Assembly (NCBI GenBank): GCA_937895515.1
Contig: CALAYS010000157.1
Span: 12,462 to 76,461, forward strand
Length of the DNA stretch: 64,000 nucleotides
Reading direction: 5' to 3'
Origin: an uncultured bacterium
GTDB lineage: Bacteria > Patescibacteriota > Minisyncoccia > Phycocordibacterales > UBA9973
Part shown: piece by piece, positions 18,542 through 64,000 of the stretch
How the letters are laid out: each line of letters opens with the position of its first letter
Position numbering within the stretch: the stretch's first letter is position 1
Notes under the pieces: generated by a model
Seen by the model: the letters and a program-made list of their open reading frames with translations, nothing else
Database searches by the model: none
Told to the model about the DNA's origin: nothing
Program-made: the position numbers and the translations under genes

Positions 18542-18550
18542 TAGTGGATA

Positions 18551-18586: not shown

Positions 18587-18592
18587 AGCCAT

Positions 18593-19141
18593 ATGTCAGG
18601 AGGTCATGGTTCATCCGGTACACCCACACTACTTATTGTAATAATAAGTGTTGTTTTAATTGGTGCTTTGATCGGTATTTTTTACCCCAAAGGTATTATT
18701 AATAACAAAAAAGTAGTTCCTACTATTGATACGCTTGGCAGAGTCAATGCTGATAAAGTTAAACCCCAAGATAATCGCGAAACTGATGCTTATTATACAA
18801 AAGCCAACATTGATACAAATGTTTGTGGTATTAAAGTTTTTTCACCTTTGCCTGGTCAAAAAGTAAGTTTCCCACTCGAAGTTTCTGGTTATGTAAATGG
18901 TTGTAATTGGGTACCTTTTGAAGGCCAAGTTGGAACAATTGAAATTCGTGATTCTAAAAATGCAATTGCTCCACTAATAATTATTCCTGTTGATGGTGAC
19001 AATTATACTTTGCCAGCTTATTTTAAAGTTAAAATCTCTCCTCAATTTAATCCAATGTCCAGTAATGGAGTTTTGATTTTCCATAATGATGACCCCAGCG
19101 GTGAAAAACCAGAAACATTTCAAGTCCCTATAATTTTTTAA
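18593..19141 (+). CDS. membrane-anchored protein with an Ig-like (Gmad2-like) domain
   Basis: N-terminal TM LLIVIISVVLIGALIGIFY. C-terminal FSPLPGQKVSFPLEVSGYVNG..WVPFEGQVGTIEIRD resembles the Gmad2 fold family. Confidence 0.5.
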   Translation: MSGGHGSSGTPTLLIVIISVVLIGALIGIFYPKGIINNKKVVPTIDTLGRVNADKVKPQDNRETDAYYTKANIDTNVCGIKVFSPLPGQKVSFPLEVSGYVNGCNWVPFEGQVGTIEIRDSKNAIAPLIIIPVDGDNYTLPAYFKVKISPQFNPMSSNGVLIFHNDDPSGEKPETFQVPIIF

Positions 19142-19147
19142 TTTATA

Positions 19148-20407
19148 ATGTTTGAATTTTACTTAGCTAATATAATTTTGGGGATAATAAAAGTTTTATT
19201 GGTTCTTTTACCAATTCCTTTGGCATATATTGCTTATATTATGTGGCACCACTATGTCAGTGAGGATTGGATTTCGGGTATTCAATGGCAGTTACTTGAA
19301 TTAAATATTCCTCAACAAGTTGTTAAGACTCCACTCGCAATGGAAACAATATTAGCAAATGCTTTTTATCATAAATCGGGTAAAGGTCTTTGGGAAGAAT
19401 ATTGGCAAGGTGCGGTTCATTTTTTCTTTTCACTTGAGATAGTCTCTATCGAGGGTCGTGTTCATTTTTATGTAAATACACCCAGCCGTGTTGTACCTTT
19501 AATTAAATCACAAATTTATGCGCAGTATCCTCAGGCTAAAGTCACAGAAGTTGAAGATTATGTTTGGTCAGTACCCAGAATTGGTAAAAAAACTGGTTGG
19601 TCTATGTGGGGTTGTGAATGGACACTAGAGAGAGAAGATCCTTACCCAATCAAAACCTATGTTGATTACGGGCTTGATAAAGTTGTTAAAGATTCTAACG
19701 AACAAGTTGACCCTATTGTTTCTTTGGTTGAATTTCTTTCTACTATTGGTCCAGGTGAACATATTTGGACACAGTTAATTATCCGTTGGTCTAAGAAAAC
19801 TTATGAAGGCGGTCATACTTTTTTAGAAGAATGTGACCGAGTTTTAGCTGATATTGTAAAACCTTATTCTAAACAAAATTTTGATGCTACAACAGGAGAA
19901 TTAACTTCTCTTGAAGTCCGTCCACCAGACTATTTAAAGGACGAAATTACTGCCATTAGTGACAAACAACACAAGCTTTGTTTTGATTGTGGAATGCGTA
20001 CAATTTATCTAGCTAAAGCCGAGGTTTTTGACCAACAGAAGCGCCGAGCTCTTCGTATGATGTACCGCCAATATAATAACCCTGTATTTAATTCTCTAAA
20101 AAGAATCAATGCGACTCAGTATGATAGTCCTTGGGAAGATCCTTTTGATATTGTTTTAACTGTTCGTAAAAATCGAATGCTTGACTGGTATAGATTCCGA
20201 GTATTTTTCCACCCGCCATGGCAATTTGCTTTTAAATACCCATTTCCTTTAAATTTATTCATTGTAACTGACCCACCACAAGTTTTTGTTTTGAATACTG
20301 AAGAAATAGCTACACTATTTCATTTCCCATCTACAATTATGGCTACACCGTCAATTAAACGTGTAGAAACAAGAACAAGTAAAGCTCCAACAAACCTACC
20401 AATATAA
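19148..20407 (+). CDS. hypothetical membrane-anchored protein (419 aa)
   Basis: N-terminal TM hairpin followed by LLELNIPQQVVKTPLAMETILANAF...FSLEIVSIEGRVHFYV...IYAQYPQAKV. From memory this resembles a CPR-wide uncharacterised family. Confidence 0.55.
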   Translation: MFEFYLANIILGIIKVLLVLLPIPLAYIAYIMWHHYVSEDWISGIQWQLLELNIPQQVVKTPLAMETILANAFYHKSGKGLWEEYWQGAVHFFFSLEIVSIEGRVHFYVNTPSRVVPLIKSQIYAQYPQAKVTEVEDYVWSVPRIGKKTGWSMWGCEWTLEREDPYPIKTYVDYGLDKVVKDSNEQVDPIVSLVEFLSTIGPGEHIWTQLIIRWSKKTYEGGHTFLEECDRVLADIVKPYSKQNFDATTGELTSLEVRPPDYLKDEITAISDKQHKLCFDCGMRTIYLAKAEVFDQQKRRALRMMYRQYNNPVFNSLKRINATQYDSPWEDPFDIVLTVRKNRMLDWYRFRVFFHPPWQFAFKYPFPLNLFIVTDPPQVFVLNTEEIATLFHFPSTIMATPSIKRVETRTSKAPTNLPI

Positions 20408-20408
20408 T

Positions 20409-21341
20409 ATGCGTTTCTCTTACATTGTTATTCTTGTTTTTATAGTATTTTCAGTAACTACTGTTTATGTTTTTTTTGCTCCTGTAAATGTAAAAAAAGA
20501 AATAGCAATTGAAATTCCATATGGATCATCTATTAGTAAAACGGGTGATATTCTTAAATCTCAAAAAGTTATTCATTCTAAAGATGCTTATGTATTTTTA
20601 ATTAAAATAATTCACCCCAAAGGTATTGTTGCTGGGCGATATTCTTTTTCAGGTAATATTAATTTGTTTTCAGTTGTTTATAGAACTTCGATAGGGGATT
20701 TTGGGCGTAAACAAGTTCGCTTAACTATACCAGAAGGTTTTACAAATGAAGAAATTATAAACCGAATAAATGCGTTATTTCCAAGTATTGCAAAAACAGA
20801 TATTAAAAATAAACTGCCAAGTGAAGGCTATATATATCCGGAAACTTATTTTTTTGATCCAGAATCAAACATTGATGAGATAACTAATACTTTGGTTACT
20901 AAAAGTACAACTAAATTAACAAATTTAATTAATCCTGTTGGTTTAAACACTGACCAAGCAAATATTATTTTAACAAAAGCATCTCTTGTAGAAGCCGAAG
21001 GCCGAACCAAAGATGAACGCCATATGATAGCTGGAATTATTGAAAATAGGTTAGACATTAACATGCCACTTCAGCTTGATGCAACATTAACTTATTTAAC
21101 TGGTAAAGGCTCTAGCGAATTAACGATTAAAGATTTAAAGAATCCATCACCATATAATACATATGTTCATACTGGTATTCCACCAGCACCGATTAATAAC
21201 CCAGGGGAAGAATCAATAAATGCAGTATTAAAACCTAAAGATTCATCATTCTTATATTATTTGCATGATAAAAATGGTACTATCCATTATGCAAAAACAT
21301 ATCAAGAACATTTGCAAAATAAAAATAAATATTTAAGATAA
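20409..21341 (+). CDS. mltG: endolytic murein transglycosylase MltG (YceG-like)
   Basis: N-terminal TM; ASLVEAEG, IENRL...MPLQLDATLTY, YNTY...GIPPAPINNPG. Confidence 0.88.
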   Translation: MRFSYIVILVFIVFSVTTVYVFFAPVNVKKEIAIEIPYGSSISKTGDILKSQKVIHSKDAYVFLIKIIHPKGIVAGRYSFSGNINLFSVVYRTSIGDFGRKQVRLTIPEGFTNEEIINRINALFPSIAKTDIKNKLPSEGYIYPETYFFDPESNIDEITNTLVTKSTTKLTNLINPVGLNTDQANIILTKASLVEAEGRTKDERHMIAGIIENRLDINMPLQLDATLTYLTGKGSSELTIKDLKNPSPYNTYVHTGIPPAPINNPGEESINAVLKPKDSSFLYYLHDKNGTIHYAKTYQEHLQNKNKYLR

Positions 21342-36664: not shown

Positions 36665-37069
36665 ATGTCTTCAGTTCCAATTTCAAAAATTGCCCACAAA
36701 ATACATTCTTCTGTAAAGGATAAATCAGGAGATAGTTTGGATAAAACTCTAACTAGTATTGTAAAGATACTTTCTAAAAATAAATTACTGTCCAAGTCTA
36801 ACGAAGTTCTAGAAAAATTAGAAAATTTATTAGATAAAGAAAATGGAATTATTCGAGCAAAAGTATATACAGCACATAAAATCGGAGCAGATAATCTTAA
36901 AGAAATAGAAAAAGAATTAAAAAATAAATACAAAACCAAAACCATCTATATTACTGTTATTGAAGACCCTAAAATCTTAGGTGGGATAAAAATCCAAATA
37001 AAAGATCAAACAATAGATCTAAGTTTGCAAAAAAAGGTTACCCAATTAAAAAAACATTTACTTAATTAA
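36665..37069 (+). CDS. atpH: F0F1 ATP synthase subunit delta (OSCP), N-terminally truncated (134 aa)
   Basis: C-terminal ILGGIKIQI...[15 protein letters not shown] matches the OSCP C-terminal domain. Only about 43 residues precede it. Operon position between b and alpha. Confidence 0.8.
36794..37066 (+). repeat. delta C-terminal domain coding segment (copy 1 of an intra-operon duplication)
   Basis: Over 91 codons, 62/91 aa are identical to 39505..39777 by hand alignment. The last 27 nt including the stop are identical. Confidence 0.9.
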
Positions 37070-37086
37070 GAGACATTATTATAGAT

Positions 37087-38586
37087 ATGAATAACCACAT
37101 TGTAGAAAATTTAAAAAACCAAATTGAAGACTATAAAGCCGATTTTAAAATTGAAAAAATTGGTCATGTTGTCGAGGTTTTTGACGGTATTGTAAAAATA
37201 TCTGGATTATCTGATGTTAAAGCATCGGAAATGGTCTCGTTCCCAAATGGTGAAATTGGTGTGACTTTGAACCTGGACGAAGATTCTGTTGGGGTAATTG
37301 TTTTGGGTGATTTTTCTAAAATCCGTGAAGGTGATTTTGTGAACTCAACTGGTAAAATTTTGGAAGTTCCAGTAGGAGAAGCTGTAATTGGACGCGTAGT
37401 AAATGCACTAGGAGCACCAATTGATGGTAAAGGTCCTATTGCATCAAATACAAAATACCCAATCGAACGTGTGGCATCTGGTGTTGTAACACGTCAATCT
37501 GTAGACCAACCAGTACAAACTGGTATCAAAGCAATTGATGCATTAATTCCAATTGGTCGTGGTCAACGTGAACTTATCATTGGAGACCGTCAAACAGGTA
37601 AAACCGCTATTGCTATTGATGCAATTTTAAATCAAAAAGGCCAAAACATGAAATGTGTTTATGTTTCTATTGGCCAAAAAGATTCAAAGCTTCGTAAACT
37701 TCAAACTCGTCTTGAAGAAGGTGGAGCAATGGATTACACAGTGATAGTTTCTGCTGGTTCATCTGAATCGGCTGCTCTATCATATATCGCACCTTATACA
37801 GGAGTATCTATTGCAGAATACTTTATGGATAAAGGTGAAGATGTTTTAATAATTTATGATGATTTGTCTAAACACGCAGTAGCATACCGTGAAATATCAC
37901 TTCTTCTACGTCGTCCACCAGGCCGTGAAGCTTACCCTGGAGATGTGTTTTATTTACATTCAAGACTACTTGAAAGAGCTTGCCGAAAAAACAAAGAATA
38001 TGGCGGTGGTTCAATTACAGCTTTGCCTATTATTGAAACTCAAGCTGGAGACGTATCAGCATATATTCCAACAAACGTTATTTCAATTACCGACGGGCAA
38101 ATCTTCTTAGAAACAGATTTATTTTATAAAGGTATCCGCCCAGCAGTAAACGTAGGGTTGTCTGTTTCTCGTGTTGGGGGATCAGCTCAAATCAAAGGTA
38201 TGAAAAAAGTTGCAGGTACTCTTAAACTAGACCTTGCACAATTCCGTGAATTGGAAGCTTTTTCACAATTCGGATCAGATTTAGATGATGCAACAAAACG
38301 CCAACTAGAGCGTGGTAAAAGAGCCGTAGAACTGCTTAAACAACCTCAATATTCTCCAATTATTGTAGAAAAACAAATTGTCTCACTATATGCTCTTGTA
38401 AAAGGTATGATGGATAATGTACCGGTAGATCGTATTAAAGAATTTGAAGCTGGTTTATCTGATTATGTTGAAGCAAACGCAAAAACATTTATGAAAGAAA
38501 TTACAGATTCAAAAATGTGGACCGATGCCGGTGAAGCAGAATTAGTAAAATCAATTGAAGATTTTAAAGCAGGATTCTTAAAATAA
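37087..38586 (+). CDS. atpA: F0F1 ATP synthase subunit alpha
   Basis: [12 protein letters not shown]-loop; 499 aa. Confidence 0.98.
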
Positions 38587-38592
38587 AACTTT

Positions 38593-39780
38593 ATGGCTGG
38601 GACAAAAGAAATTAAAAGAAGAATAAAGTCTGTAAAGAACACAAAGAAAATCACGAAAGCGATGGAGCTTGTTGCTGCTAGTAAAATGAAAAGAGCAGTG
38701 GCTAGTACTTTATCTTCGCGATTATATGCACAATATTCTTGGGAGATTTTAAAATCAATAAGCCAAAATTCAGAACAAATCAGTCATCCGTTTTTTATAG
38801 GCTATGACCAAGAAAAAATTTTATTTGTATTAATTACTTCAAACCGTGGTTTGTGTGGGGGGTATAATTCGCAAGTTCTTAAAAAAACAATTTTAAAACT
38901 TAAAGAATTAAATTCTCTTGGTTCAGACGAGATTGATGTTGTTACTATTGGTAAAAAGGGTGGCATTGGAATGCGTAGAATTGGGCAAAATGTAATTGCT
39001 TCTTTTGATAATTTACCAGAACATATAGATTTAATGGATACGGTTCCAATTTCTAGATATATTGTTGACCAATACAAAACTGGTAATTACAAAAAAGTTT
39101 ATGTTGCTTATACTGACTTTATCTCAGCACTAAATCAAAAACCTAGTATTAAACAATTGTTACCAATATCAAAAAAAGATTTATTAGAAGCTATCGAATC
39201 AATAGGGGAAGATAAAATCCAAAAAGATTCAGATTCTAATGAAAAACCAGATTATCTATTTGAGGGAAATCAAGAATTATTAATAGATGCTTTGGGTGAA
39301 AAAATTTCTCGAATGCAAATATACCAAATGTTACTGGAATCAAATGCATCCGAACAATCGTCCCGTATGGTTGCCATGAAGAATGCATCCGAAGCTGCAG
39401 GGGAAATGATTGATGATTTAACACTGGTATTTAACAAAGCTCGTCAGGCAAATATCACTCAGGAAATATCAGAGATTAGTGCCGGAATGTCGAGCATGGT
39501 GGCTAAGTCAGATATTGTATTAAACAACTTGGAAGAACTAATAGACAAAGAGCACGGAATAATTCGACCTAAAATATATACAGCTAATAAAATTCCACAA
39601 GAGATCATTAAAGAAATTGAGCAAGAATTAAAAAATAAATACAAAGCCGAAGAAGTTATAATCACGGAAATAGAAGACCCAAATATCTTAGGTGGAATAA
39701 AAATCCAAATATCGAACGAAATAATTGACTTGAGTCTACAAAAAAGAGTCGCTCAATTAAAAAAACATTTACTTAATTAA
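38593..39780 (+). CDS. atpG: F0F1 ATP synthase subunit gamma fused to a delta-C-terminal-domain-like extension (395 aa)
   Basis: KRRIKSVKNTKKITKAMELVAASKM ... NKARQANITQEISEISAG is a full gamma. Residues 305-395 repeat the atpH C-terminal domain. Confidence 0.9.
   Translation: MAGTKEIKRRIKSVKNTKKITKAMELVAASKMKRAVASTLSSRLYAQYSWEILKSISQNSEQISHPFFIGYDQEKILFVLITSNRGLCGGYNSQVLKKTILKLKELNSLGSDEIDVVTIGKKGGIGMRRIGQNVIASFDNLPEHIDLMDTVPISRYIVDQYKTGNYKKVYVAYTDFISALNQKPSIKQLLPISKKDLLEAIESIGEDKIQKDSDSNEKPDYLFEGNQELLIDALGEKISRMQIYQMLLESNASEQSSRMVAMKNASEAAGEMIDDLTLVFNKARQANITQEISEISAGMSSMVAKSDIVLNNLEELIDKEHGIIRPKIYTANKIPQEIIKEIEQELKNKYKAEEVIITEIEDPNILGGIKIQISNEIIDLSLQKRVAQLKKHLLN
39505..39777 (+). repeat. 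delta C-terminal domain coding segment (copy 2, fused to atpG)
   Basis: See 36794..37066. Confidence 0.9.
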
Positions 39781-50988: not shown

Positions 50989-52431
50989 ATGGAAACGAAA
51001 AAAATTATAACAAGGTTTGCGCCAAGTCCAACAGGGTTTATGCACGTTGGGGGTGTTCGAACTGCTCTATTTTCATACCTTTGGGCTAAAAGAAACAATG
51101 GGACTTTTATATTGCGTATTGAAGACACCGACAAAGCTCGTGAAGTTGAAGGATCTATCGACCACATCATGGAGTCTTTAAAATGGCTAGGTATTGATTG
51201 GGACCAAGGCCCCGACAACGGTGGTCCGTATGCTCCTTATAAACAATCTGACCGATTAGATATTTATAATAAATACGCTCAAATACTTATTGATAAAGGC
51301 TACGCTTATGTTGACCCTCATACTGAAGAAGAAATAGAATCATTGCGTCAAGAAGCCGACAAAAACAAAGTTCCATTTTTGTATCGTGAACACAGGTCAC
51401 TTGAAACTAACATTCCTTGGACAGGACTTGGACAAACACTGCGTTTTCGGGTTAAAGATATCAAGCGCTACGAATGGGATGATGTTGTTTATGGTAAACT
51501 TTCTGCTGGAACCGAAGCACTAGACGACTTTGTATTAATCAAAGCCGATGGATACCCAACATATAATTTTGCACATGTTATTGATGATATTGAAATGGGT
51601 GTAACTCATGTTATGCGTGGGCAAGAATTTGTTTCTTCAACTCCTAAATATTTGTCTTTATATGATGCATTAGGCGCAACACCACCTATTTTTGTATCAC
51701 TGCCACACATTATGGCTGACTGTGGTAAGAAAAAGCTTGGTAAGCGTGACGGAGCTAAAGATATATTAGACTATCGCGAAGAAGGTTATTTACCTGAAGC
51801 ATTATTTAACTTTTTAGCATTTTTGGGTTGGAACCCAGGTGGTGAAGTTGAAATCATGGAACATGATGAATTAATTAATGTTTTTGATATTACACGCCTA
51901 CAAAAAGGTGGTGCACAATTTGATGATGTTAAATTAAACTGGTATAACCGTGAACATATTAAAAAACTACCAAATGATGAATTTATAAAACGAATGGATA
52001 GCTTTTTACCAGACCATGTTAAAAACAATCCTGAAATTCTAAATAAAATACTTTATATTACTCGTGACCATATTGATAAACTGAGCGATGTAAAAGATTT
52101 ATTTACAGCTGGTGGGGAATTAGACTTTTTCTTTAAAAAACCTGTTTACGAAAAATCTTTACTTATTTCCCCTAAAACTAAATTAGGTAACATTGCAGGG
52201 GAGAAGGTAGAAGAATTTTTAGAAGGGGTAAAAAATATATTAATGAATATTGATGAATCTAACTGGGATATGGAATTTATCAAAGGTAAAATCATGGATT
52301 ATGCTGACAAGAATGGCCGCGGTGATGTACTATGGGCTATGCGTGTGGCTTTAACCGGACTAGCTAAATCTCCTGATCCATTTACTAGTGCATTTGTGCT
52401 GGGTAAAAATGAAACACTAAACCGTCTTTAA
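50989..52431 (+). CDS. gltX: glutamate--tRNA ligase
   Basis: RFAPSPTGFMHVGGVRTAL (HIGH) and KLGKRDG (KMSKS-like). Confidence 0.95.
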   Translation: METKKIITRFAPSPTGFMHVGGVRTALFSYLWAKRNNGTFILRIEDTDKAREVEGSIDHIMESLKWLGIDWDQGPDNGGPYAPYKQSDRLDIYNKYAQILIDKGYAYVDPHTEEEIESLRQEADKNKVPFLYREHRSLETNIPWTGLGQTLRFRVKDIKRYEWDDVVYGKLSAGTEALDDFVLIKADGYPTYNFAHVIDDIEMGVTHVMRGQEFVSSTPKYLSLYDALGATPPIFVSLPHIMADCGKKKLGKRDGAKDILDYREEGYLPEALFNFLAFLGWNPGGEVEIMEHDELINVFDITRLQKGGAQFDDVKLNWYNREHIKKLPNDEFIKRMDSFLPDHVKNNPEILNKILYITRDHIDKLSDVKDLFTAGGELDFFFKKPVYEKSLLISPKTKLGNIAGEKVEEFLEGVKNILMNIDESNWDMEFIKGKIMDYADKNGRGDVLWAMRVALTGLAKSPDPFTSAFVLGKNETLNRL

Positions 52432-55348: not shown

Positions 55349-55636
55349 ATGGCACATAGGAAAGCCGGTGGTTCCGCGAAGAACCTCAAGGACTCACAGC
55401 CAAAATATCTAGGTACTAAAAAGTATGCTGGAGAAAAAGTTATAGCTGGAAATATTATTATCCGTCAACGCGGAACAAAAATTCTTGCTGGAAATAACGT
55501 TGGCATGGGACGCGATCATACATTGTTTGCTCTTAAAGATGGAACTGTAAAGTTTACAAACAAAAGAAAAAATAATTTTGATGGGTCTCAAACAGTCCGA
55601 AAACAAGTTCATGTAACACCACCAACATCTAAATAG
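55349..55636 (+). CDS. rpmA: 50S ribosomal protein L27
   Basis: [22 protein letters not shown]...IIIRQRGTK. Confidence 0.95.
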
Positions 55637-56310: not shown

Positions 56311-57000
56311 ATGAAAGCTTTTATTCTGTGTGCTGGTAACGGCGAGCGATTAAAACCATTGACTGACAATACCCCAAAACCACTTATCTTAATAAAGGGT
56401 CGGCCTATTTTGTCTTATATATTCTCTTCCCTACCTGATGAAATTAACGAAGTTTTTATTGTTATAAAACAAAAGCATTTAGATTTATTTGAAAATTTTT
56501 TAAAGGAAAACCCAATAGATAAAAAAATTAAATTTTTATTTCAAGATGAAAAAACCAAAGGCACATACCATGCATTAATGGCAGGGTCCGAAGTTATTAA
56601 AAATGAAGATAAATTTTTAGTACTAAATGGTGATGATATTTTCCTAAAAGAAGATTTGGAAGAATTAATTAAAATAAATTCCCCGGCATATGGTCTTAGT
56701 TATAAAATCTTAAATGAAAGATACCGGACTTGTGATATAGACCAAGAAACAAAAACAATTACTAACTTTAGATTTATTAAAAAAGAAGAAAAAGAAAAAC
56801 CTGTAATTTGTTTTTCTGGAGCATATACACTAACATCAGATTTTTTAAATTATAAACCAGTTTATGTTGGTGATGAAGCCGGAATACCTCATACTCTATT
56901 TGGTGCAAACGTTAAAGTCTCTTATATAATTTTAAAGCATTGGCATCAAATAAATACACTTGATGAACTAACTAAAACCGAGCAAGAAATAAATTTTTAA
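56311..57000 (+). CDS. nucleotidyltransferase (NTP_transferase family)
   Basis: AFILCAGNGERLKPLTDNTPKPL; LNGDD. Confidence 0.75.
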   Translation: MKAFILCAGNGERLKPLTDNTPKPLILIKGRPILSYIFSSLPDEINEVFIVIKQKHLDLFENFLKENPIDKKIKFLFQDEKTKGTYHALMAGSEVIKNEDKFLVLNGDDIFLKEDLEELIKINSPAYGLSYKILNERYRTCDIDQETKTITNFRFIKKEEKEKPVICFSGAYTLTSDFLNYKPVYVGDEAGIPHTLFGANVKVSYIILKHWHQINTLDELTKTEQEINF

Positions 57001-58694
57001 ATTATTTCTTGTTGATAACACTTTTCACAATAAACTATTTCTGGCCTATTAGGGGCATATGAAGTAAAAATACTATCATTACATTTGGCGCAGTTTCTAT
57101 TGTAAAAAAATGGCATATTAAGTCTAGACATTCTCCTGTTATGTCTACAGTCTGTACAATTTCTAGGGATAGGTAAATTTATTTTTTTTAATAAATCAAA
57201 TTCACCTGTACCAATTTTATAAGGTTTACTACATTCCACACAAGACAATATCTGATCAATTATTGAAATATCTATATCATTAATACTATCTGGAATATCT
57301 TGAGAATATAATGTTGGTGTAATATTGTTTATATTTTTTTCTGTATACTTAAATCCTTCATTTAAAATTTCTTCTTTATTTAAATCAAAATATTGAATAG
57401 CGTAAGATTCATTATAAGAAAAAGGTGACAAATCATAAGGTAAAAATTCACCATATTTAAATACTCTACCCTTTTTATCTATATAAGGATTTTTTTCAAG
57501 ATCTTCTATTATTTTTTTGCGAAGAATAAAATAATCTTCTTTAGAATATTGTTTATTAAGTATACAGTATTCTTTTTTCCTTAAATTAACACAACCAAAA
57601 CAATTAGATACATTAACACAATACATTGCATATTCTACATTACTACAGTTATTCCAGGACCCGGCACAATATTTTGAACCATTTACCCCTTCACCTACTG
57701 TAATTGAATCAATGCAGTAAGATATATTGTGCCCCCATTCGGAAATATCATAACATTCTTTTGTTGTACCTAATGTTACGAATTGGCAATATTTAGAATC
57801 CTCTAAAGATATTGCTTGGTAACAGTTTTTTGAATTTTTAGAATTATAAATATATTCACCAGAAGAATCAAAATTCAATCTTTCGTAAGAAAATCTTTTA
57901 GGAAAAGATAGCCAAAATTTATAAATATTTTTTTGTATTTCTTTATGCGTTGTATATTTATCTAATCCAAGATTATTAAACCTGTTTTGCCATTCTTCTT
58001 TTGATAGTTGTTCATTAAACCAAACATTATTTCTATTTCTTAAATTTACACAACCAAAACAATTTGTACAAGCGTGGCAGTCTTTAGAATACCAAACATT
58101 TAAAGATTCAGGACAATTATCGGAAAAGAATCTTCGACTACCATCACCCGCTATACATTCATATGATAATTCACTATTATTAGTCATAGTCATTTCAGCG
58201 CATTCTCTGGAATGGACAATAGTTGAACTATTATAAACATTTTCACAATAATCAGCATTAAAAATTAAATGACAATTTTTTAAAGCTCCAGCATGGTTAA
58301 CATATTCACTATTAACTAATGACTGATAGTCAACAATCAAATTTTGAAATGGGGTTTTATTTCTAAGCTCTAAATATTGCTCAAAGAAATTTCGGTTAGG
58401 GTCATAATCTATACCATAGTCTGTTCCTTCCCATCCATCGCTCCACCAACATTTACCACAATAAACTTTTAGCCCACCTTCCTCGGAAAAAATTGATAAT
58501 ATATTTTTATCACAAAGCCCACATTTTCTTTTATATAAATTGCGCTCATTACGAAACATTAATCGACGCTGTAGTCTACAATCCGGACAAAATGTCGGTG
58601 CCGGGACACCTATTTTATCGTAAAAATCAAAATCCTCTGGTTCAATAATAAAGTTTTGCTTACAGTTCTGGCAGTTACGATTTTCTATTTCCAT
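56997..58694 (-). CDS. large multi-zinc-ribbon Cys-rich protein (565 aa, 35 Cys)
   Basis: Paired CxxC...CxxC modules at both termini (NCQNC..FCPDCR..KCGLC..YCGKC and SCVEC..NCTDCR..NCAKC..YCEKC). Two internal modules end in NCFGCVNLR. Confidence 0.75.
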   Translation of the reverse strand: MEIENRNCQNCKQNFIIEPEDFDFYDKIGVPAPTFCPDCRLQRRLMFRNERNLYKRKCGLCDKNILSIFSEEGGLKVYCGKCWWSDGWEGTDYGIDYDPNRNFFEQYLELRNKTPFQNLIVDYQSLVNSEYVNHAGALKNCHLIFNADYCENVYNSSTIVHSRECAEMTMTNNSELSYECIAGDGSRRFFSDNCPESLNVWYSKDCHACTNCFGCVNLRNRNNVWFNEQLSKEEWQNRFNNLGLDKYTTHKEIQKNIYKFWLSFPKRFSYERLNFDSSGEYIYNSKNSKNCYQAISLEDSKYCQFVTLGTTKECYDISEWGHNISYCIDSITVGEGVNGSKYCAGSWNNCSNVEYAMYCVNVSNCFGCVNLRKKEYCILNKQYSKEDYFILRKKIIEDLEKNPYIDKKGRVFKYGEFLPYDLSPFSYNESYAIQYFDLNKEEILNEGFKYTEKNINNITPTLYSQDIPDSINDIDISIIDQILSCVECSKPYKIGTGEFDLLKKINLPIPRNCTDCRHNRRMSRLNMPFFYNRNCAKCNDSIFTSYAPNRPEIVYCEKCYQQEII

Positions 58695-58727
58695 GGTATT
58701 TATAACTTTATAAAACTTAAACTTTTA

Positions 58728-60194
58728 CTAGATCAAAGGTTCACTTTCAACTTTAGGAGCAGAAGCTGAAGATGCATCATTATGTTGTCCGGGTTTGTTT
58801 GAAATTGCGGCTTTTTCTTGGGCAGATCTTACAATTAGGTTTTCATCTTCTTCCATTATGCGTTTAACTTCCTCTACTGGTACCGCAAATTGATTCCGTG
58901 AAGCTTCGATAATTCTTTCTCTATATGATGGGTGTACCGCGGGCAAGACTTTTAATGTCTCCGCGGAGAATGGGTCATATGATTCCCCATCAATTGTCAT
59001 TTTTATATAAAATTCACCAACACCCAGGTTAATCATGTCTTTAACATCAAAAATTGGAGCATATTCGGGTTTAAGTTTAACAGCATCTTCCCCACCAATA
59101 CGAAATGTAATCATGGATCCCACATTACCCATTACAGCTTGCTGAACTTTGGGTAATAATTGGTTAACATACTGGTGAGCAACAGTTAAATTAAGACCAT
59201 ATTTACGAGCCTCGGATAAAATATTTTCAAAAGTATCAGTAACCAAGTTTTGGAACTCGTCCACATATAGGTAAAAATCATTTCGGTCTTCTTTAGCTAA
59301 TTTAGCTCGAGACATACCAGCTTGTTTGATTTTAGTAATAAACATCGCTCCAAAAAATGACGCATTCTCTTCCCCAATTTTACCTTTGGAAAGATTAATC
59401 AAAATTATTTTTTGATCATTCATTAATTTTTCCAAATCAACTTTGTTACCTTTTTGCCCAAAAATATGTCTTAGCATTGGGTCTGATAGAAATTGTCCTA
59501 ATTTATTAACCAATGGAATAATAGCATCAGTATCAAATTTTTCTGACCAGTCGGCAAATTCAATTGCCCAGAATCTTTTTACCATATCATCTTCAATATA
59601 TTCCACAACCTTTTGACGATAGTTACGGTCAGTTAGCATTGAAATCATCCCTCGCATTGTGGCGTATGGATAGTCCAGCAGCGCCAATGTTGTAAAACGA
59701 AAAACGTGTTCCAACCGGGGTGTCCAGTTAGACCCGAATTGTTTCTTTAAGACTTCAATTAATCCTTGGGTTAATTGGTGTTTAAATGTTGGGTCAACAT
59801 TAGCTAATGGATTAAACGATACTGGGTAATCATCATCTGACGGATCAATAATACAAACATCATTAATTCTATCTTCTGGTACAAATTCTAAAATATCATC
59901 AATTAATTCACCATGGGGGTCAATAACACAAACACCATAGCCATAAGCTATGTCTTGACGAATCATTAATTCTTGCAGTTTAGATTTACCAACACCAGAT
60001 TTACCAACAATATATAAATGGCGGCGACGGTCAATTCTTTTAATTCCAAATACATATTTTTTTTCTTCAAGTGCAGCAACATAGTTTGTTCGTCCAATAA
60101 AACAAACCTCGCGTGGGTCAATATCACCCAATACTGGCAGTTCTGGTGGTGGTGGAGCATATTTAATTATTTGTATTTTATTTGAATTTCCCAT
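58728..60194 (-). CDS. VirD4/TraD-like (T4SS coupling-protein-type) P-loop NTPase without a TM anchor
   Basis: Walker A GKSGVGKS, IDPHGEL, Walker B FYLYVDEFQN, AHQY. No hydrophobic N-terminus. Confidence 0.75.
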   Translation of the reverse strand: MGNSNKIQIIKYAPPPPELPVLGDIDPREVCFIGRTNYVAALEEKKYVFGIKRIDRRRHLYIVGKSGVGKSKLQELMIRQDIAYGYGVCVIDPHGELIDDILEFVPEDRINDVCIIDPSDDDYPVSFNPLANVDPTFKHQLTQGLIEVLKKQFGSNWTPRLEHVFRFTTLALLDYPYATMRGMISMLTDRNYRQKVVEYIEDDMVKRFWAIEFADWSEKFDTDAIIPLVNKLGQFLSDPMLRHIFGQKGNKVDLEKLMNDQKIILINLSKGKIGEENASFFGAMFITKIKQAGMSRAKLAKEDRNDFYLYVDEFQNLVTDTFENILSEARKYGLNLTVAHQYVNQLLPKVQQAVMGNVGSMITFRIGGEDAVKLKPEYAPIFDVKDMINLGVGEFYIKMTIDGESYDPFSAETLKVLPAVHPSYRERIIEASRNQFAVPVEEVKRIMEEDENLIVRSAQEKAAISNKPGQHNDASSASAPKVESEPLI

Positions 60195-60196
60195 AA

Positions 60197-61333
60197 TTAA
60201 TTATCAAGCTCGTGTGATTCTCCTGTTAATACTGCAATGCGGGCTATTTCCATAGCGGCATCAATATTTCCAATATCAAAAGTTGCTTTATGCATTTTAG
60301 TCCAAACAGATTCATGCATTAAAATACTATTAACTTCAGATATAAATAAATGTGGCAATGCGTTGACTTCTTCCATTATAATACCTGCTCCAATTTCAGC
60401 ATAATGAATAGCATTTTTATGTTGATGGTTACCATTAGAATGAGTTATAGGTATAACTATTGCTGGTATGTGCCAAGTTGCAATTTCAAACAAGGTTGAA
60501 CCAGCTCGTGACACCACAAGAGACGAAATAGCTGCAGCATGCCTTGTATCAACTGCATTTAAAAATGGTTTTATAATATAACGATTTTTATAAGGATGAT
60601 TTTCTAGAATTACGCTGGATTCATTCTTAACATTAATTTCATTATTTACTCCACATTGATGGATTATTTGATATGTTTTTAAAAGTTCACTTAATGATTC
60701 CATTACAAGATCATTTATTTTTTCAGCACCTTGGGACCCAGCATATACAAAAATTGTTGGTATATGTTGATCTAAATTATAGTATTCTGCACCATCAGCA
60801 GTTGTGGGTAAATGCATTAATTCATTACGGATTGGTAAACCAACAACAGCTGTTTTTGTTTTGTCAAAAAATTCTTCAGCATCTTTATAAGAAAGAGCAA
60901 TATTTTTAGCAAACTTCCCTGCCCACATATTAACTCGTCCAGGATGAGTATCTGACTCATGAATAACTACTGGAATATTTAACATTCTTGCAGCAAAAAG
61001 AGCCGGAAATGACCCATGTCCACCCTTGGCAATAACTACATCTGGATATAAGAAAAATAATTTAAATAAAGCTTGCACTAAACCAATTGCAACTTTGAAC
61101 ATATCCGTAAAATTTTTAAACGAAGGATATATCCGCAATTTACCAGTGGAGACGGATATAAATTTTATTTCATTTTCAGTCAAAGCCTTTTGATCATAAG
61201 GATCACTAGACATATAATAAAGTTCTACTTTCCCAAGCTTGCGCTCACGAGACAAAGTATGTATTCTCTCTGCTATTGCTATTAGTGGATAAAAATGTCC
61301 ACCTGATCCGCCACCAGTTAAAAGTATTTTCAT
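60197..61333 (-). CDS. murG: undecaprenyldiphospho-muramoylpentapeptide beta-N-acetylglucosaminyltransferase MurG
   Basis: Start trimmed to ATG 61333 (MKILLTGGGSGGHFYPLIAIAE). HESD and RAGSTLFE motifs. Confidence 0.9.
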   Translation of the reverse strand: MKILLTGGGSGGHFYPLIAIAERIHTLSRERKLGKVELYYMSSDPYDQKALTENEIKFISVSTGKLRIYPSFKNFTDMFKVAIGLVQALFKLFFLYPDVVIAKGGHGSFPALFAARMLNIPVVIHESDTHPGRVNMWAGKFAKNIALSYKDAEEFFDKTKTAVVGLPIRNELMHLPTTADGAEYYNLDQHIPTIFVYAGSQGAEKINDLVMESLSELLKTYQIIHQCGVNNEINVKNESSVILENHPYKNRYIIKPFLNAVDTRHAAAISSLVVSRAGSTLFEIATWHIPAIVIPITHSNGNHQHKNAIHYAEIGAGIIMEEVNALPHLFISEVNSILMHESVWTKMHKATFDIGNIDAAMEIARIAVLTGESHELDN

Positions 61334-61334
61334 A

Positions 61335-63686
61335 TTACAAACTTGCCTGTTTAGACAGGTCATCATTATCTTTTTCGAATAATTTTTTTAATACATCTTC
61401 CGGAACTTCCTTTTTAGGTGTTCTTTTGCTGTATTTTTCCGGAGGCTTGGGAACCTCTAATTCGATCTTATCTTCATAGAATTTTTCAACTTTTGTTACT
61501 TCTTCTTTTACAATTTCATCCTTCTTTTCATTAACTATATTAGGTGTGTTATTTATATTTTCAGTTTTTGTCTGATTTACAATAGGAGCTGTTTTAACAT
61601 TAGAAACATTTGCAACATTATTCACTAAATTTTTTAGCATCTGTTGTGATTCATATGTTGCGGCTTTGGGAGTAACAGATGCCACAGGCTTTGGAACTTC
61701 AATTTTATCTTCTATAACCGGAGTATTAACTGTTTGTTTAAGCTCGGCAACTTTGGGATGAATTGTTATTTTTTGTGGATCAGACTTTATTGGTGTTACA
61801 GGTTTAGGCGGATTTGTAGATGATGTTGGATTTGCTTGTGTAATTGTACCTAATAAATCCTTTAAAGTCGTAAAGCCTTCTTTGTCTTTTTCATCTTTAA
61901 TTGGAACCATAGCTGGTTTAGATTGAGTTAGAGTTTGGTATTTATTGTTTAAGTTATTATTTGAATTCAACGTAGGTTTACTATTTTGTACAAATGTTTT
62001 TGGTGTTGGCGTATTTGAAAATGTTTTGGGTGTTTCTTTTTTATAATCTTTTTGTATAAAAGATGGTTTGTTATTTGTAATAATTGTTGGTTGATATTCA
62101 ATACCCATTGCCGCTAATGCTTCGGCGGGTTTAGGCCCATCATTTAAATTTTTATCATAAAATCCTTTGGCTGGTTTTAGTTCCCCTACTTTTATTTTAC
62201 TTAAACAATCTTTACAATAAATAGGTTTACCGGCTTTGGGTTCAAAAGGTACAACAATTTCCTTGTTACAGTTAACACATACAGCAGGATACATTTTATT
62301 TGTTGGAGTATTACTATAAGGATTTGAATTCGTATTTTCTTTATTAGCAATGATTGTTCCACCAGCAGTTGAACTCCAAGAGTTAATTGCCGCTTCAACA
62401 ACATTCTGCGGGCGACAATAAATTTCACGAGATCTTTTAATTGCAGCTTCGGTACTGTCTTCTAATCCATCGTTAATTCTTATTGGTGGCAAAGTATTTG
62501 CTGAAAAAGGCCGGCTAGTAATACCATCAATCATTAATTTTAAATAAATCTCATAGTTTGGAAGACCAATAAAATCTTCAGGAATAAATTCTGGAGCAAA
62601 TTCTTTTTCTAAAACCTTGGCATCTTCTGCTCCGATACGAAAAATTATCATTGACCCCACGTTACCAAAAACTGCATCTTTTAAATCACCCCCATCTTTG
62701 GTTTCAATTTGAGCAGTATATTGATGAGCCAGTGTTAAACAAAGACGGTATTTACGAGCTTCAGACAAAATACTTGCAAAAGATTCTGTCGCAAAGTTTT
62801 GGAATTCATCAACATATAAATAAAAATCGCGTCTCTCTTCTTCTGGAATACGAACACGCTCCATGGCCGCTAGTTGCAATTTAGTAATAATCATTGCACC
62901 AAGAAGAGCCGAGTTATCTTCACCAATACGGCCTTTGGATACATTAACAAGGAAAATTTTTCCTTCATTCATTAAATTAAAAACATCAATAGTACTTTCT
63001 TGTTGACCAACGATATTTCGAATAATCGATGATGAAAGAAATTGCCCAACTTTATTTTGAATCGGAGCAATGGCTTCGTTACGGAATTGTTCTTTCCATT
63101 GTTCGTATTCATGAACCCAAAAAGCCTTAACCATTGGGTCTTTTAAATTATTAATTATGACTTGGCGATAGTCTTTATCAACTAACATCCGAGTAATACC
63201 CAGTAGTGTTGTATTAGGAGTATCCAGCAGTGCCAAAATAGTATTGTTCATAATGTATTCCATACGAGATGACCATACATTAGCCCAAATTTTTGTAAAA
63301 ATACCCATCAGCCCCGAAGCCACTAAATGTTTGTATTTAGAATCGCGTAATTCTAGTGGATTAAAACCAATACAATATTCTGTATCAGCTGGGTTAAAAT
63401 AAACAACGTCGTTTAGTCTATGTTCAGGAATGACTTTTAATACAGTCTCAACTAATTCTCCATGAGGATCAACAAGACACAAACCTTCACCATTCCAAAT
63501 ATTTTGAATAACAAGGTTTGAAATAAGCGCTGATTTACCAGTACCTGATTTACCTAATATATATAAATGTTGGCGACGATCCTTACGCTTGATACCAAAA
63601 ATTTCATTCCCACCACGAAAATTCGTACGAGCGAAATACGTAATATCACGATTCATTGGAATGTCCGGCATGTGCGGATTTTGCAT
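61335..63686 (-). CDS. VirD4/TraD-like P-loop NTPase with a C-terminal zinc ribbon and a long low-complexity tail (783 aa)
   Basis: Paralog of 58728..60194: GKSGTGKS, VDPHGEL, FYLYVDEFQN, AHQY. CVNC-x20-CKDC at residues 470-494. N/T/P/K-rich tail. Confidence 0.75.
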   Translation of the reverse strand: MQNPHMPDIPMNRDITYFARTNFRGGNEIFGIKRKDRRQHLYILGKSGTGKSALISNLVIQNIWNGEGLCLVDPHGELVETVLKVIPEHRLNDVVYFNPADTEYCIGFNPLELRDSKYKHLVASGLMGIFTKIWANVWSSRMEYIMNNTILALLDTPNTTLLGITRMLVDKDYRQVIINNLKDPMVKAFWVHEYEQWKEQFRNEAIAPIQNKVGQFLSSSIIRNIVGQQESTIDVFNLMNEGKIFLVNVSKGRIGEDNSALLGAMIITKLQLAAMERVRIPEEERRDFYLYVDEFQNFATESFASILSEARKYRLCLTLAHQYTAQIETKDGGDLKDAVFGNVGSMIIFRIGAEDAKVLEKEFAPEFIPEDFIGLPNYEIYLKLMIDGITSRPFSANTLPPIRINDGLEDSTEAAIKRSREIYCRPQNVVEAAINSWSSTAGGTIIANKENTNSNPYSNTPTNKMYPAVCVNCNKEIVVPFEPKAGKPIYCKDCLSKIKVGELKPAKGFYDKNLNDGPKPAEALAAMGIEYQPTIITNNKPSFIQKDYKKETPKTFSNTPTPKTFVQNSKPTLNSNNNLNNKYQTLTQSKPAMVPIKDEKDKEGFTTLKDLLGTITQANPTSSTNPPKPVTPIKSDPQKITIHPKVAELKQTVNTPVIEDKIEVPKPVASVTPKAATYESQQMLKNLVNNVANVSNVKTAPIVNQTKTENINNTPNIVNEKKDEIVKEEVTKVEKFYEDKIELEVPKPPEKYSKRTPKKEVPEDVLKKLFEKDNDDLSKQASL

Positions 63687-63700
63687 ATATTTGTATCTAA

Positions 63701-63709
63701 ATTATAGCA
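63701..63709 (-). promoter_or_regulatory. extended -10 TGcTATAAT, 14 nt before ATG 63686
   Basis: Follows the rplU terminator. Heads the VirD4-like/murG operon. Confidence 0.55.
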
Positions 63710-63760: not shown

Positions 63761-63791
63761 AAAAAACCTCATACTGTGCATGAGGTTTTTT
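63761..63791 (-). terminator. rplU terminator
   Basis: AACCTCAT-actgtgc-ATGAGGTT flanked by A and T runs. Confidence 0.75.
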
Positions 63792-63797
63792 AAGAGA

Positions 63798-64000
63798 TTA
63801 TTTTATTGCAGTAATTTTTACTTCAACAAATGGTTGTCTGTGACCATTCTTTTTAAAATATCGAGATTTTTGTAAATACTTAACTACCATTACTTTATCA
63901 GCACGGCCGATTTTTGTAACTTCAGCTGTAACGCTTGCTCCATCAATTAATGGCATACCAATAGTTGTATCTTTACCATTATCGACTAGCAAAACTTCAT
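63798..64000 (-). CDS. rplU: 50S ribosomal protein L21, N-terminus off the window
   Basis: ADKVMVVKYLQKSRYFKKNGHRQPFVEVKITAI is a typical L21 C-terminus. The ORF stays open to the window edge. Confidence 0.85.
   Translation of the reverse strand, partial: EVLLVDNGKDTTIGMPLIDGASVTAEVTKIGRADKVMVVKYLQKSRYFKKNGHRQPFVEVKITAIK

What the first reader, a model, noticed from the sequence alone, without database searches (positions are those of the whole stretch)
56997..63709. murG embedded between two paralogous TM-less VirD4/TraD-like NTPases, followed by a giant zinc-ribbon protein
Seen in sequence: one minus-strand transcription unit runs from the promoter at 63701..63709 and has almost no spacers. 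Its order is a 783-aa ATPase, then (1 nt) murG, then (2 nt) a 488-aa ATPase, then (33 nt) a 565-aa Cys-rich protein. The two ATPases are clear paralogs:
- FGIKR.DRR.HLYI.GKSG.GKS
- .DPHGEL
- FYLYVDEFQN
- ..AHQY

Family knowledge: these motifs are those of T4SS coupling-protein / TraD-VirD4-TrwB type hexameric translocases. Both proteins here lack the N-terminal membrane anchor, and no other T4SS component (VirB4, B6, B8-11, relaxase) is in the window.

Inference: tight coupling to the lipid II glycosyltransferase suggests an envelope-associated role other than conjugation, such as DNA or nucleoprotein translocation, cell-division-linked transport, or wall-synthesis coordination. This is the best candidate here for an uncharacterised multi-gene system.
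Basis: partly seen in the sequence, partly recalled or inferred. Interest (0 to 1): 0.75.

Follow-up and report, generated by a model that had tools for sequence, protein, structure and literature searches.

The report
Orphan coupling-type ATPase pair; murG incidental
The two ATPases are the highly conserved, unexplained "orphan" type-IV-coupling-protein homologues carried by nearly all Patescibacteria; murG sits between them only in one narrow lineage, and their recurrent partners are a separately encoded membrane protein and a large uncharacterised cysteine-rich protein family.

Summary
Four minus-strand genes run ATPase(783 aa)-murG-ATPase(488 aa)-Cys-rich(565 aa), with 1, 2 and 33 nt spacers. 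The ATPases are 49% identical, have no TM segment and are TrwB/VirD4-like in sequence and predicted fold. No other T4SS gene was found among the window ORFs scanned.

The murG inference fails. murG lies between the ATPases in only 4 of 80 species-level relatives, plus one extra locus. Elsewhere murG sits in mraY-ftsW-murG-gltX, and the common order is short ATPase, then 1-7 Cys-rich paralogues, then long ATPase.

New points:
- The "missing" N-terminal part is a separate gene in this window (19148-20407). It is a predicted TM protein that sits immediately upstream of one or the other ATPase in several lineages. It is fused to the ATPase in Bacillus phage G gp156.
- Both ATPases carry conserved C-terminal peptides. 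The long one has an almost invariable Zn ribbon.
- The Cys-rich family is very large, has no Pfam core and has no structural match.

Most likely this is a split, membrane-docked coupling-type ATPase system whose substrate is unknown. Published work has counted these homologues but not explained them.

The parts
61335..63686 (-). Long T4CP-like ATPase ('ATPlong', 783 aa). ATPase domain at about aa 30-400, CxxC-x17-CxxC Zn ribbon at aa 464-498, K/P/T/N-rich low-complexity linker, and a conserved near-C-terminal peptide KKEVPEDVLKKLF.
   Evidence: Pfam TrwB_AAD_bind 6e-14 and zf_Tbcl_2 1e-12. TIGR04272. No TM segment. Zn ribbon in 47 of 48 orthologues, C-terminal 'KEVPEDVLRKVLE' in most of them, total length 600-930 aa.
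60197..61333 (-). murG-like GT28 glycosyltransferase (378 aa). It is a passenger gene in this locus.
   Evidence: GT28 N and C domains. TIGR01133 scores 207.8 bits, below the cut-off. It lies between the ATPases in only 4 of 80 loci plus L090. In two more distant relatives it sits in mraY-ftsW-murG-gltX.
58728..60194 (-). Short T4CP-like ATPase ('ATPshort', 488 aa). Highly conserved, with a near-invariant C-terminal EPLI-COOH after a disordered acidic linker.
   Evidence: Pfam DUF87, T4SS-DNA_transf and TrwB_AAD_bind. More than 8000 hits, with the top 120 at 78% identity or more. AF2 model best matches TrwB 1e9s at E=5e-9. EPLI C-terminus.
56997..58694 (-). Cys-rich 565-aa protein ('CysRich'). 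Double Zn-ribbon module (aa 4-84), two homologous Cys-containing core repeats modelled partly as beta-strand runs (about aa 127-240 and 277-393), a conserved linker, and a second double Zn-ribbon module (aa 481-562).
   Evidence: 35 Cys and 11 CxxC motifs. Only weak zf_Tbcl and zf_Tbcl_2 hits. N versus C modules: hhalign E=5e-22. Core repeats against each other: E=2e-21. AF2 pLDDT 79.6. No significant PDB or BFVD match. 2049 clusters at 50% identity with E<=1e-30, among the best 150 mostly 545-600 aa.
63701..63709 (-). Extended -10-like element TGCTATAAT, 15 nt upstream of the ATPlong ATG.
   Evidence: Read directly from the sequence. Not listed by the consensus scan because there is no -35. 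Function is untested.
63761..63790 (-). Hairpin plus T-run after the rplU (L21) stop. This is a likely terminator that separates rplU from the ATPase genes.
   Evidence: Sequence aaaaacctcatgcacagtatgaggtttttt.
19148..20407 (+). p419: N-terminal predicted TM segment plus a roughly 380-aa domain with no Pfam match. Candidate membrane partner and 'missing N-terminal half' of the ATPases. It is encoded 38 kb away, in the order sigma-r4/HARE-HTH gene, p182, p419, yceG.
   Evidence: Hydropathy peak at the N-terminus. All four family members hit only phrog_5156, at positions within 29-357, with E=2e-4 to 5e-13. The ATPases hit positions 395-820 of the same profile. BLASTP to phage G gp156 aa 51-311 gives E=3e-8. 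The gene sits immediately upstream of an ATPlong-type ATPase in 9 of 80 metagenome loci, and upstream of p174-ATPshort in L084 and L092.

Best explanation
The locus holds two of the three or more parts of a chromosomal, vertically inherited, split coupling-protein-like ATPase system that is close to universal in Patescibacteria.

**Shown**
- Two ancient paralogous TrwB/VirD4-fold ATPases, one short and one long with a Zn ribbon, are usually neighbours.
- A separately encoded predicted TM protein (p419, window 19148-20407) corresponds to the N-terminal half of fused phage homologues. It abuts one or the other ATPase in several lineages.
- In many Parcubacteria, 1-7 anciently diverged copies of the 565-aa Cys-rich protein lie between or beside the ATPases.
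- murG is a lineage-specific passenger.

**Inferred**
- The ATPases form a ring, possibly a hetero-oligomer, docked on the membrane through p419. This would resemble the way TM-less TraJ of pIP501 is proposed to be anchored by TraI.
- Their flexible tails with conserved end peptides (EPLI-COOH; KEVPEDVLRKVLE) and the Zn ribbon recruit partners.
- ATP hydrolysis hands a substrate to a membrane channel, most probably the monoderm-type T4SS/pilus apparatus encoded elsewhere.
- The Cys-rich proteins would be lineage-specific clients or adaptors.
For: **Homology and fold**
- Sequence and structure searches place both ATPases with T4SS coupling proteins.
- The paralogy is ancient. The distant L092 short and long forms are 72% and 63% identical to the window orthologues but only 46-48% identical across paralogues.

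**Conservation**
- ATPshort is 83% identical to the RAAC4_OD1 copy in L036, whose contig matches P0425's longest contig. MurG and GltX of the P0425 locus (L088) are 50% and 58% identical.
- This points to a core function rather than a mobile one.

**Neighbourhood**
- ATPlong lies within 10 kb of ATPshort in 49 of 80 loci, always on the same strand.
- CysRich is present in 56 of 80 loci, on the same strand in 55 of 56, and between the ATPases in 30.
- The same order recurs in distant L092.

**Rosetta stone**
- Both halves of phrog_5156 and of phage G gp156 (825 aa) are matched: p419 to the N-half and the ATPases to the C-half.
- SPO1 gp27.4 (906 aa) matches the ATPase at about aa 419-761, after a roughly 400-aa N-terminal region.
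- p419 is adjacent to an ATPase in at least three gene contexts.

**Other**
- End peptides are conserved.
- ATPlong and CysRich share the zf_Tbcl_2 ribbon type.
- Literature: T4CP homologues occur in 2,918 of 3,035 genomes and are rarely near virB4; the T4SS is of monoderm type (PMC12102498). TraI is the proposed anchor for TraJ (PMC12857230).
Against: - No T4SS gene was found near the ATPases, either in the scanned window ORFs or among the gene families recurring in at least 5 of the 80 genome loci.
- The homologues are more widespread (96% of genomes) than VirB4 (80%) (PMC12102498).
- In Ca. Southlakia the t4cp homologue was reported non-essential while the T4SS genes are essential (as cited in PMC12102498). 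The T4SS cluster there lacks a recognisable coupling protein (PMC10633639).
- Identity of about 80% across families is unusual for T4SS parts.
- CysRich arrays in L085, L086 and L087 have no ATPase within 10 kb. p419 is next to yceG rather than an ATPase in about 60 of 80 loci. Part of the linkage could therefore be inherited synteny.
- No interaction, oligomer state or substrate was tested. TM prediction rests on hydropathy alone.
Confidence: 0.4

Rival explanations
1. A T4SS-independent housekeeping translocase. The membrane-docked ATPase pair would move DNA or nucleoprotein, for example powering ComEC-mediated DNA uptake or chromosome or DNA-end handling. The Zn-ribbon proteins would act as nucleic-acid-binding accessories.
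For: - The pair is near-universal and more frequent than virB4 (PMC12102498).
- ATPshort is very strongly conserved.
- ATPlong and CysRich carry Zn ribbons.
- comEC plus its lactamase-B part lies directly downstream of the ATPlong/CysRich block in two distant loci, L091 and L092.
- HerA, which NCBIfam and the PDB entries describe as a helicase or DNA translocase, is among the next-best relatives.
Against: - comEC is absent from the 80 genome loci and from the window.
- comEC is dispensable in Ca. Southlakia (PMC12857230, citing Wang 2023).
- No DNA-binding test was done.
- The function of the CxxC-x17-CxxC domain is unknown beyond Zn binding (PMC12704099).
- Best fold matches are coupling proteins, not FtsK or HerA.
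Confidence: 0.3
2. One reading: the ATPases work with MurG in an envelope or wall-synthesis-linked process, as indicated by translational coupling in one operon.
For: - Spacers of 1-2 nt in the window and in L006, L007, L008, L010 and L090.
- In L092, ftsW-murG lie about 5 kb downstream of ATPlong.
- p419 is usually next to yceG/mltG.
Against: - The adjacency is confined to one narrow clade: 4 of 80 loci, with MurG at 65-80% identity.
- In two more distant relatives murG sits in mraY-ftsW-murG-gltX away from the ATPases.
- In L009, a close relative, other genes take murG's place between the ATPases.
- The ATPase pair is conserved far beyond this clade without murG.
Confidence: 0.05
3. A remnant of a conjugative or mobile element, or an anti-phage defence module of the HerA or MADS type, with the variable Cys-rich genes as effectors.
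For: - Weak PADLOC hits to mad8 (46-50 bits) and HerA.
- Homologues occur in Bacillus phages.
- Copy number of CysRich varies from 1 to 7, even between close relatives. L005 has four copies and the window has one.
Against: - GC content matches the rest of the window.
- No integrase, relaxase or flanking tRNA, and the surrounding genes are housekeeping.
- The locus is syntenic across 80 species.
- The pair is present in 96% of genomes (PMC12102498), and ATPshort identity is about 80%. Defence and mobile genes are typically patchy and fast-evolving.
- CysRich paralogues within a locus are old, at 27-50% identity, not recent expansions.
Confidence: 0.05

Closest known systems
Type IV coupling proteins (TrwB of R388, VirD4, TraD, DotL, Cag-beta)
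   Same: - P-loop NBD of the FtsK/HerA superfamily with an inserted all-alpha domain.
- Walker A GKSGxGKS and Walker B DEF.
- TraG-D_C region.
- Best Foldseek hits are 1e9s, 6sz9 and 8dol.
- Flexible C-terminal tails with a conserved end peptide recall the TraD tail that binds TraM (from memory, not tested here).
   Different: - No TM segment in the same polypeptide.
- Two fixed paralogues.
- A chromosomal core gene at about 80% identity.
- No relaxase or T4SS neighbours.
- A Zn ribbon in one paralogue.
- Scores are far below the NCBIfam equivalog cut-offs, at 42-54 bits against 250-650.
Orphan 'T4CP homologues' of Patescibacteria (Quinonero-Coronel et al. 2025, PMC12102498)
   Same: This is almost certainly the same set of proteins. 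There are about 2 per genome, in 2,918 of 3,035 genomes, and only 148 of 5,713 lie near virB4. The authors say exaptation 'cannot be ruled out'.
   Different: In the passages read, that paper gives counts and does not describe the short/long paralogue pair, the tails and Zn ribbon, the p419 partner or the CysRich neighbourhood.
phrog_5156 proteins of large Bacillus phages (phage G gp156, 825 aa; SPO1 gp27.4, 906 aa)
   Same: - The C-half matches both ATPases far better than TrwB does, at 192-210 bits.
- The N-half matches p419.
- In phage G the neighbouring gene gp155 is annotated as VirB-like.
   Different: - The phage proteins are a single fused polypeptide.
- Identity is only 23-29%.
- Their function is also unknown.
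- They have no Zn ribbon and no CysRich partner.
TraJ/TraI of pIP501 (TM-less T4CP with a separate membrane anchor)
   Same: A soluble coupling ATPase that is proposed to be tethered by a separately encoded small membrane protein (PMC12857230).
   Different: - TraI is a small two-TM protein.
- p419 has a roughly 380-aa extra domain.
- No homology between TraI and p419 was tested.
- pIP501 is a conjugative plasmid with a relaxase.
HerA / FtsK translocases
   Same: The same ATPase superfamily. DUF87 hits, and HerA structures appear among the Foldseek matches.
   Different: - They rank below the coupling proteins.
- No HerA-specific N-terminal domain and no NurA or other nuclease partner was noted.
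- No FtsK gamma domain was noted.

Membership tests
Type IV coupling protein (VirD4/TraD/TrwB) | FtsK/HerA-type NBD with Walker A and B motifs | tested here: met
   GKSGVGKS / GKSGTGKS and YLYVDEFQN are present. Pfam PF10412, PF02534 and PF12696 score above their gathering cut-offs.
Type IV coupling protein (VirD4/TraD/TrwB) | All-alpha domain inserted in the NBD, giving an overall TrwB-like fold | tested here: met
   In the AF2 model, helices at aa 135-259 lie between core strands. Foldseek gives TrwB E=5e-9, with TM-score only 0.41-0.49 and model pLDDT 69.9.
Type IV coupling protein (VirD4/TraD/TrwB) | N-terminal transmembrane anchor in the same protein | tested here: not met
   No hydrophobic 19-mer scores above 1.6 in either ATPase. 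A separate predicted TM protein, p419, may supply the anchor.
Type IV coupling protein (VirD4/TraD/TrwB) | Genetic association with a relaxase and/or mating-pair-formation genes (VirB4 and others) | tested here: not met
   None was found in the scanned window ORFs. None appears among the recurrent neighbours in 80 loci. Only 148 of 5,713 lie near virB4 (PMC12102498).
Type IV coupling protein (VirD4/TraD/TrwB) | Scores above curated equivalog thresholds | tested here: not met
   The best NCBIfam scores are 54 bits (CD1115, cut-off 250) and 52 bits (SXT_TraD, cut-off 366).
Type IV coupling protein (VirD4/TraD/TrwB) | Hexamer that couples a substrate to a T4SS channel | not testable with these tools
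   No multimer prediction or experiment was available.
MurG (GT28 lipid II synthase) | GT28 N- and C-terminal domains and the G-loop GGxGGH | tested here: met
   PF03033 1e-26 and PF04101 7e-25. LTGGGSGGHFYP is present. TIGR01133 scores 207.8 bits, below the 250.25 cut-off, and homologues are source-annotated as MurG.
phrog_5156-type fused protein (phage G gp156) | N-terminal p419-like domain and C-terminal T4CP-like ATPase in one chain | tested here: not met
   In the window the two halves are separate genes 38 kb apart. Each half matches the corresponding part of the profile and of gp156.
HerA-type defence or repair ATPase | HerA-specific N-terminal domain plus a nuclease or effector partner (NurA, Sir2, DUF4297) | tested here: not met
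   Only about 50 residues precede Walker A, and Pfam finds no nuclease among the neighbours. PADLOC HerA hits reach 29 bits at most and cover only short stretches.

The most novel reading that the evidence does not exclude
The p419 membrane protein and the two ATPases, joined in Parcubacteria by the Cys-rich Zn-ribbon/repeat family, form a previously undescribed and near-universal Patescibacterial transport machine that works independently of the VirB4 T4SS. It could, for example, import or export DNA or the Cys-rich proteins at the host interface. It would be an ancient split relative of the fused proteins of SPO1-like and G-like phages.
Probability: 0.2. Interest if true: 0.8.

Novelty: new variant of a known kind. 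Interest (0 to 1): 0.5.

Why it matters
Patescibacteria make up a large share of bacterial diversity and depend on hosts. About 96% of their genomes carry these coupling-protein homologues, yet no function is assigned, and the T4SS cluster of the one genetically tractable species lacks a recognisable coupling protein.

This analysis removes a misleading clue, the murG adjacency, and gives a concrete parts list to test:
- two paralogous ATPases with docking-type tails;
- a separately encoded membrane partner, identified through gene fusion and adjacency;
- a family of more than 2,000 clusters at 50% identity of Cys-rich proteins with no domain annotation beyond terminal Zn ribbons and no structural match found.

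If the parts form one machine, it would be a lineage-defining transport or recruitment system relevant to the epibiotic lifestyle. If not, the ATPases remain ordinary orphan T4CP homologues.

Tried and rejected
- **murG coupling.** Tested by synteny in 80 genome loci and by the context of murG homologues. Rejected.
- **dcw cluster in the window.** Looked for one from which murG might have moved. None found: only gltX is present, with no mraY or ftsW.
- **CysRich fold.** Foldseek against PDB and BFVD, and a profile search against PDB sequences. Only non-significant left-handed beta-helix resemblances (E>0.6) and isolated Zn-ribbon or LIM hits. PADLOC, PHROGs and NCBIfam gave nothing.
- **Domain fusions of CysRich.** The 1.84-billion-protein representative search showed a largely uniform architecture and no informative fusion.
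- **Second CysRich in the window.** The 556-aa no-Pfam ORF at 9921-11591 is not a paralogue, and tblastn finds no other copy.
- **comEC and peptidase M17 as general neighbours.** They appear only in the distant loci L085, L091 and L092, not in the 80 loci.
- **p419 annotation.** Pfam, NCBIfam and a PDB profile search gave nothing. Only PHROGs gave the link.
- **p174/p182.** These small TM proteins next to p419 are not clearly homologous between lineages and were left out.
- **Mobile-element or defence reading.** Rejected on composition, context and conservation.
Full report
**What is there.** The window is a low-GC (about 32%) Patescibacteria chromosome segment of the Parcubacteria/Nomurabacteria type. 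It is full of housekeeping genes.

On the minus strand, an rplU fragment is followed by a hairpin plus T-run and then a TGCTATAAT element at 63701-63709. Four tightly spaced ORFs follow:
- a 783-aa ATPase (61335-63686);
- murG (60197-61333; 1-nt gap from the conserved start);
- a 488-aa ATPase (58728-60194; 2-nt gap);
- a 565-aa Cys-rich protein (56997-58694; 33-nt gap).

The last gene's stop overlaps a convergent nucleotidyltransferase gene by 4 nt. A single transcript is plausible but not shown, and promoter-like and terminator-like matches in the region are not enriched over shuffles.

**The ATPases.**
- They are 49% identical over 391 residues (E=4e-135).
- Both hit TrwB_AAD_bind, T4SS-DNA_transf, TraG-D_C and DUF87. 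They fall far below every NCBIfam equivalog threshold.
- An AlphaFold2 model of the short one (pLDDT 69.9) is closest to TrwB (E=5e-9). DotL and Cag-beta follow, ahead of HerA and VirB4.
- Neither has a hydrophobic segment.
- The short paralogue is very strongly conserved. More than 8000 database hits were returned, and the top 120 are all at 78% identity or more.
- It is 83% identical to the RAAC4_OD1 copy in L036, whose contig matches P0425's longest contig. MurG and GltX of the P0425 locus (L088) are only 50% and 58% identical.
- The duplication is old. In the distant locus L092, the short and long forms are 72% and 63% identical to their window orthologues but 46-48% identical across paralogues.
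- All but a few short orthologues end in EPLI-COOH after a disordered linker.
- The long orthologues (600-930 aa) carry a CxxC-x17-CxxC ribbon in 47 of 48 cases. They have a variable low-complexity linker, and most of them end in a conserved KEVPEDVLRKVLE peptide.
- That ribbon type binds zinc in Methanosarcina small proteins. Its function is unknown (PMC12704099).

**murG is a passenger.** I fetched 80 species-representative genome loci around orthologues of the short ATPase and located the other genes by tblastn.
- murG lies between the ATPases in only four loci (L006, L007, L008, L010), all close relatives. L090 was found separately.
- MurG identity falls abruptly from 65-80% (22 clusters) to 54% or less, which marks a narrow clade.
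- In two more distant relatives, murG sits in scpA-scpB-mraY-ftsW-murG-gltX-M23.
- The window keeps gltX at 50989-52431 on the other strand and has no mraY or ftsW. This is consistent with rearrangement.
- In L009, a close relative, unrelated genes occupy murG's position.

**What is conserved instead.**
- The long ATPase lies within 10 kb of the short one in 49 of 80 loci: 43 downstream and 6 upstream, always on the same strand.
- One to seven copies of the Cys-rich protein are present in 56 of 80 loci, on the same strand in 55 of 56, and between the two ATPases in 30.
- The same order (short ATPase, M17 peptidase, two CysRich genes, long ATPase) recurs in the more distant L092.
- In three other distant Parcubacteria, the CysRich genes (tandem in L085 and L087, single in L086) have no ATPase within 10 kb.
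- Intervening small genes occur in many loci.
- The linkage is therefore suggestive rather than proven, and the loci are not phylogenetically independent.

**The Cys-rich family.**
- It is very large: 6769 hits at E<=1e-5. In a 50%-identity representative library, 2049 proteins hit at E<=1e-30, and among the best 150 listed nearly all are 545-600 aa.
- Wherever a source names it, it is called hypothetical or given only a Zn-ribbon label.
- The architecture is a double Zn-ribbon module, two homologous Cys-containing core repeats, a conserved linker and a second double Zn-ribbon module. hhalign gives E=5e-22 for the two end modules and E=2e-21 for the two core repeats.
- The AF2 model (pLDDT 79.6) has no significant match in PDB or BFVD.
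- Copies within a locus are 27-50% identical (median 38%) and fall into at least 15 subfamilies. The arrays therefore reflect differential retention of old paralogues.
- L005 has a short ATPase 97% identical to the window's and flanking genes at 90-94%. It has four copies where the window has one, and its best copy is only 47% identical.

**A membrane partner.**
- PHROGs gave the strongest family match for both ATPases: phrog_5156, at 192-210 bits. The match covers only positions 395-820 of an 824-position profile.
- In L092 and L084, the short ATPase is immediately preceded by a predicted TM protein (p464/p419) and a small TM protein.
- The window homologue, p419, lies at 19148-20407.
- A metagenome scan with a p419 alignment returned 80 diverse loci.
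  - In about 60, the order is sigma-r4/HARE-HTH gene, p419, yceG.
  - In nine divergent loci, p419 is followed within about 10-105 bp by a long-type ATPase. In L158, the one checked, that ATPase carries the CxxC ribbon.
  - In one locus, p419 is followed by a CysRich gene.
- All four p419-family proteins tested hit only phrog_5156, in its N-terminal half, with E=2e-4 to 5e-13.
- Bacillus phage G gp156 (825 aa) aligns with p419 proteins over aa 19-313 (BLASTP E=6e-11 and 3e-8; profile E=2e-12). It aligns with the ATPases over aa 381-786 (E=2e-39 and 4e-47).
- In SPO1 gp27.4 (906 aa) the ATPase match lies at about aa 419-761, after a roughly 400-aa N-terminal region.
- This is a gene-fusion (Rosetta-stone) link plus recurrent adjacency. 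The 'TM-less' ATPases most likely have a separately encoded N-terminal, membrane-anchored half.

**Mechanism.**
- Shown: homology, the paralogue pair, the tails, the fusion and adjacency evidence, and the incidental nature of murG.
- Inferred: a ring ATPase docked to the membrane by p419. It would recruit partners through its tails and Zn ribbon and feed a channel. The precedent is pIP501 TraJ, proposed to be anchored by TraI (PMC12857230).
- Published surveys found VirD4-type homologues in 2,918 of 3,035 Patescibacteria genomes, rarely near virB4, and left exaptation open (PMC12102498). The Ca. Southlakia T4SS cluster lacks a recognisable coupling protein (PMC10633639).
- I rate coupling to the T4SS/pilus apparatus as most likely (about 0.4).
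- A T4SS-independent nucleic-acid translocase is a serious rival (about 0.3). It is supported by wider distribution than virB4, very strong conservation, and comEC adjacency in L091 and L092.
- Wall-synthesis coupling and the defence or mobile-element readings are unlikely.

**Verdict.**
The functional inference from murG is wrong.
- The underlying system is a known but unexplained component of Patescibacteria. This analysis adds a parts list.
- Interest is moderate.

Noticed in passing
window 17483-21341: The gene order is sigma-70 region 4 + HARE-HTH protein (352 aa), small TM/Ig-like protein (182 aa), p419, then yceG/mltG. The sigma-HARE, p419, yceG order holds in about 60 of 80 diverse metagenome loci. 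The sigma-r4 + HARE-HTH fusion is itself unusual.
   Followed up: partly
L091 15365-17871; L092 16212-18547: comEC (DUF4131 + Competence) and a separate lactamase-B gene lie directly downstream of the CysRich/long-ATPase block in two distant Parcubacteria. They are absent from the 80 genome loci and from the window.
   Followed up: partly
L085 5024-6499; L091 1-1432; L092 8263-9780: A peptidase M17 (leucyl aminopeptidase) gene recurs inside or beside CysRich arrays in three distant loci.
   Followed up: partly
L085 1-18849: About ten tandem genes of 500-596 aa with no Pfam match. Several were confirmed as CysRich paralogues by tblastn. They lie in one 729-kb Patescibacteria contig.
   Followed up: partly
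L173 (Bacillus phage G) 1196-5338: gp155, annotated as 'type IV secretory pathway protein; VirB-like', sits immediately upstream of the fused gp156. gp155 shows only P-loop-level similarity to the window ATPases.
   Followed up: partly
window 36665-39780: In the F-type ATP synthase operon, the gamma subunit (395 aa) carries an extra C-terminal OSCP/delta-like domain (aa 309-393). The separate delta gene is short (134 aa) and matches only the C-terminal part of the OSCP profile.
   Followed up: no
window 55349-55636 (+) and 63797-64000 (-): rpmA (L27) and rplU (L21), usually adjacent in one operon, are about 8 kb apart on opposite strands, with the ATPase block between them. In L090, L21 also directly precedes the long ATPase.
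   Followed up: no
window 9921-11591 (-): A 556-aa ORF with several CxxC motifs and no Pfam hit. It is not a CysRich paralogue.
   Followed up: partly
window 56997-57000: The stop codon of the CysRich gene overlaps by 4 nt the end of the convergent nucleotidyltransferase gene (56311-57000). No terminator-like hairpin lies between them.
   Followed up: no
L018 8993-10438 and 35 other loci: A roughly 480-aa protein with a hydrophobic, signal-like N-terminus follows the long ATPase in L018 and recurs in 36 of 80 loci in all. Nramp, CutA1 and a small cytidylyltransferase-like gene are also recurrent neighbours. This is probably inherited synteny.
   Followed up: no
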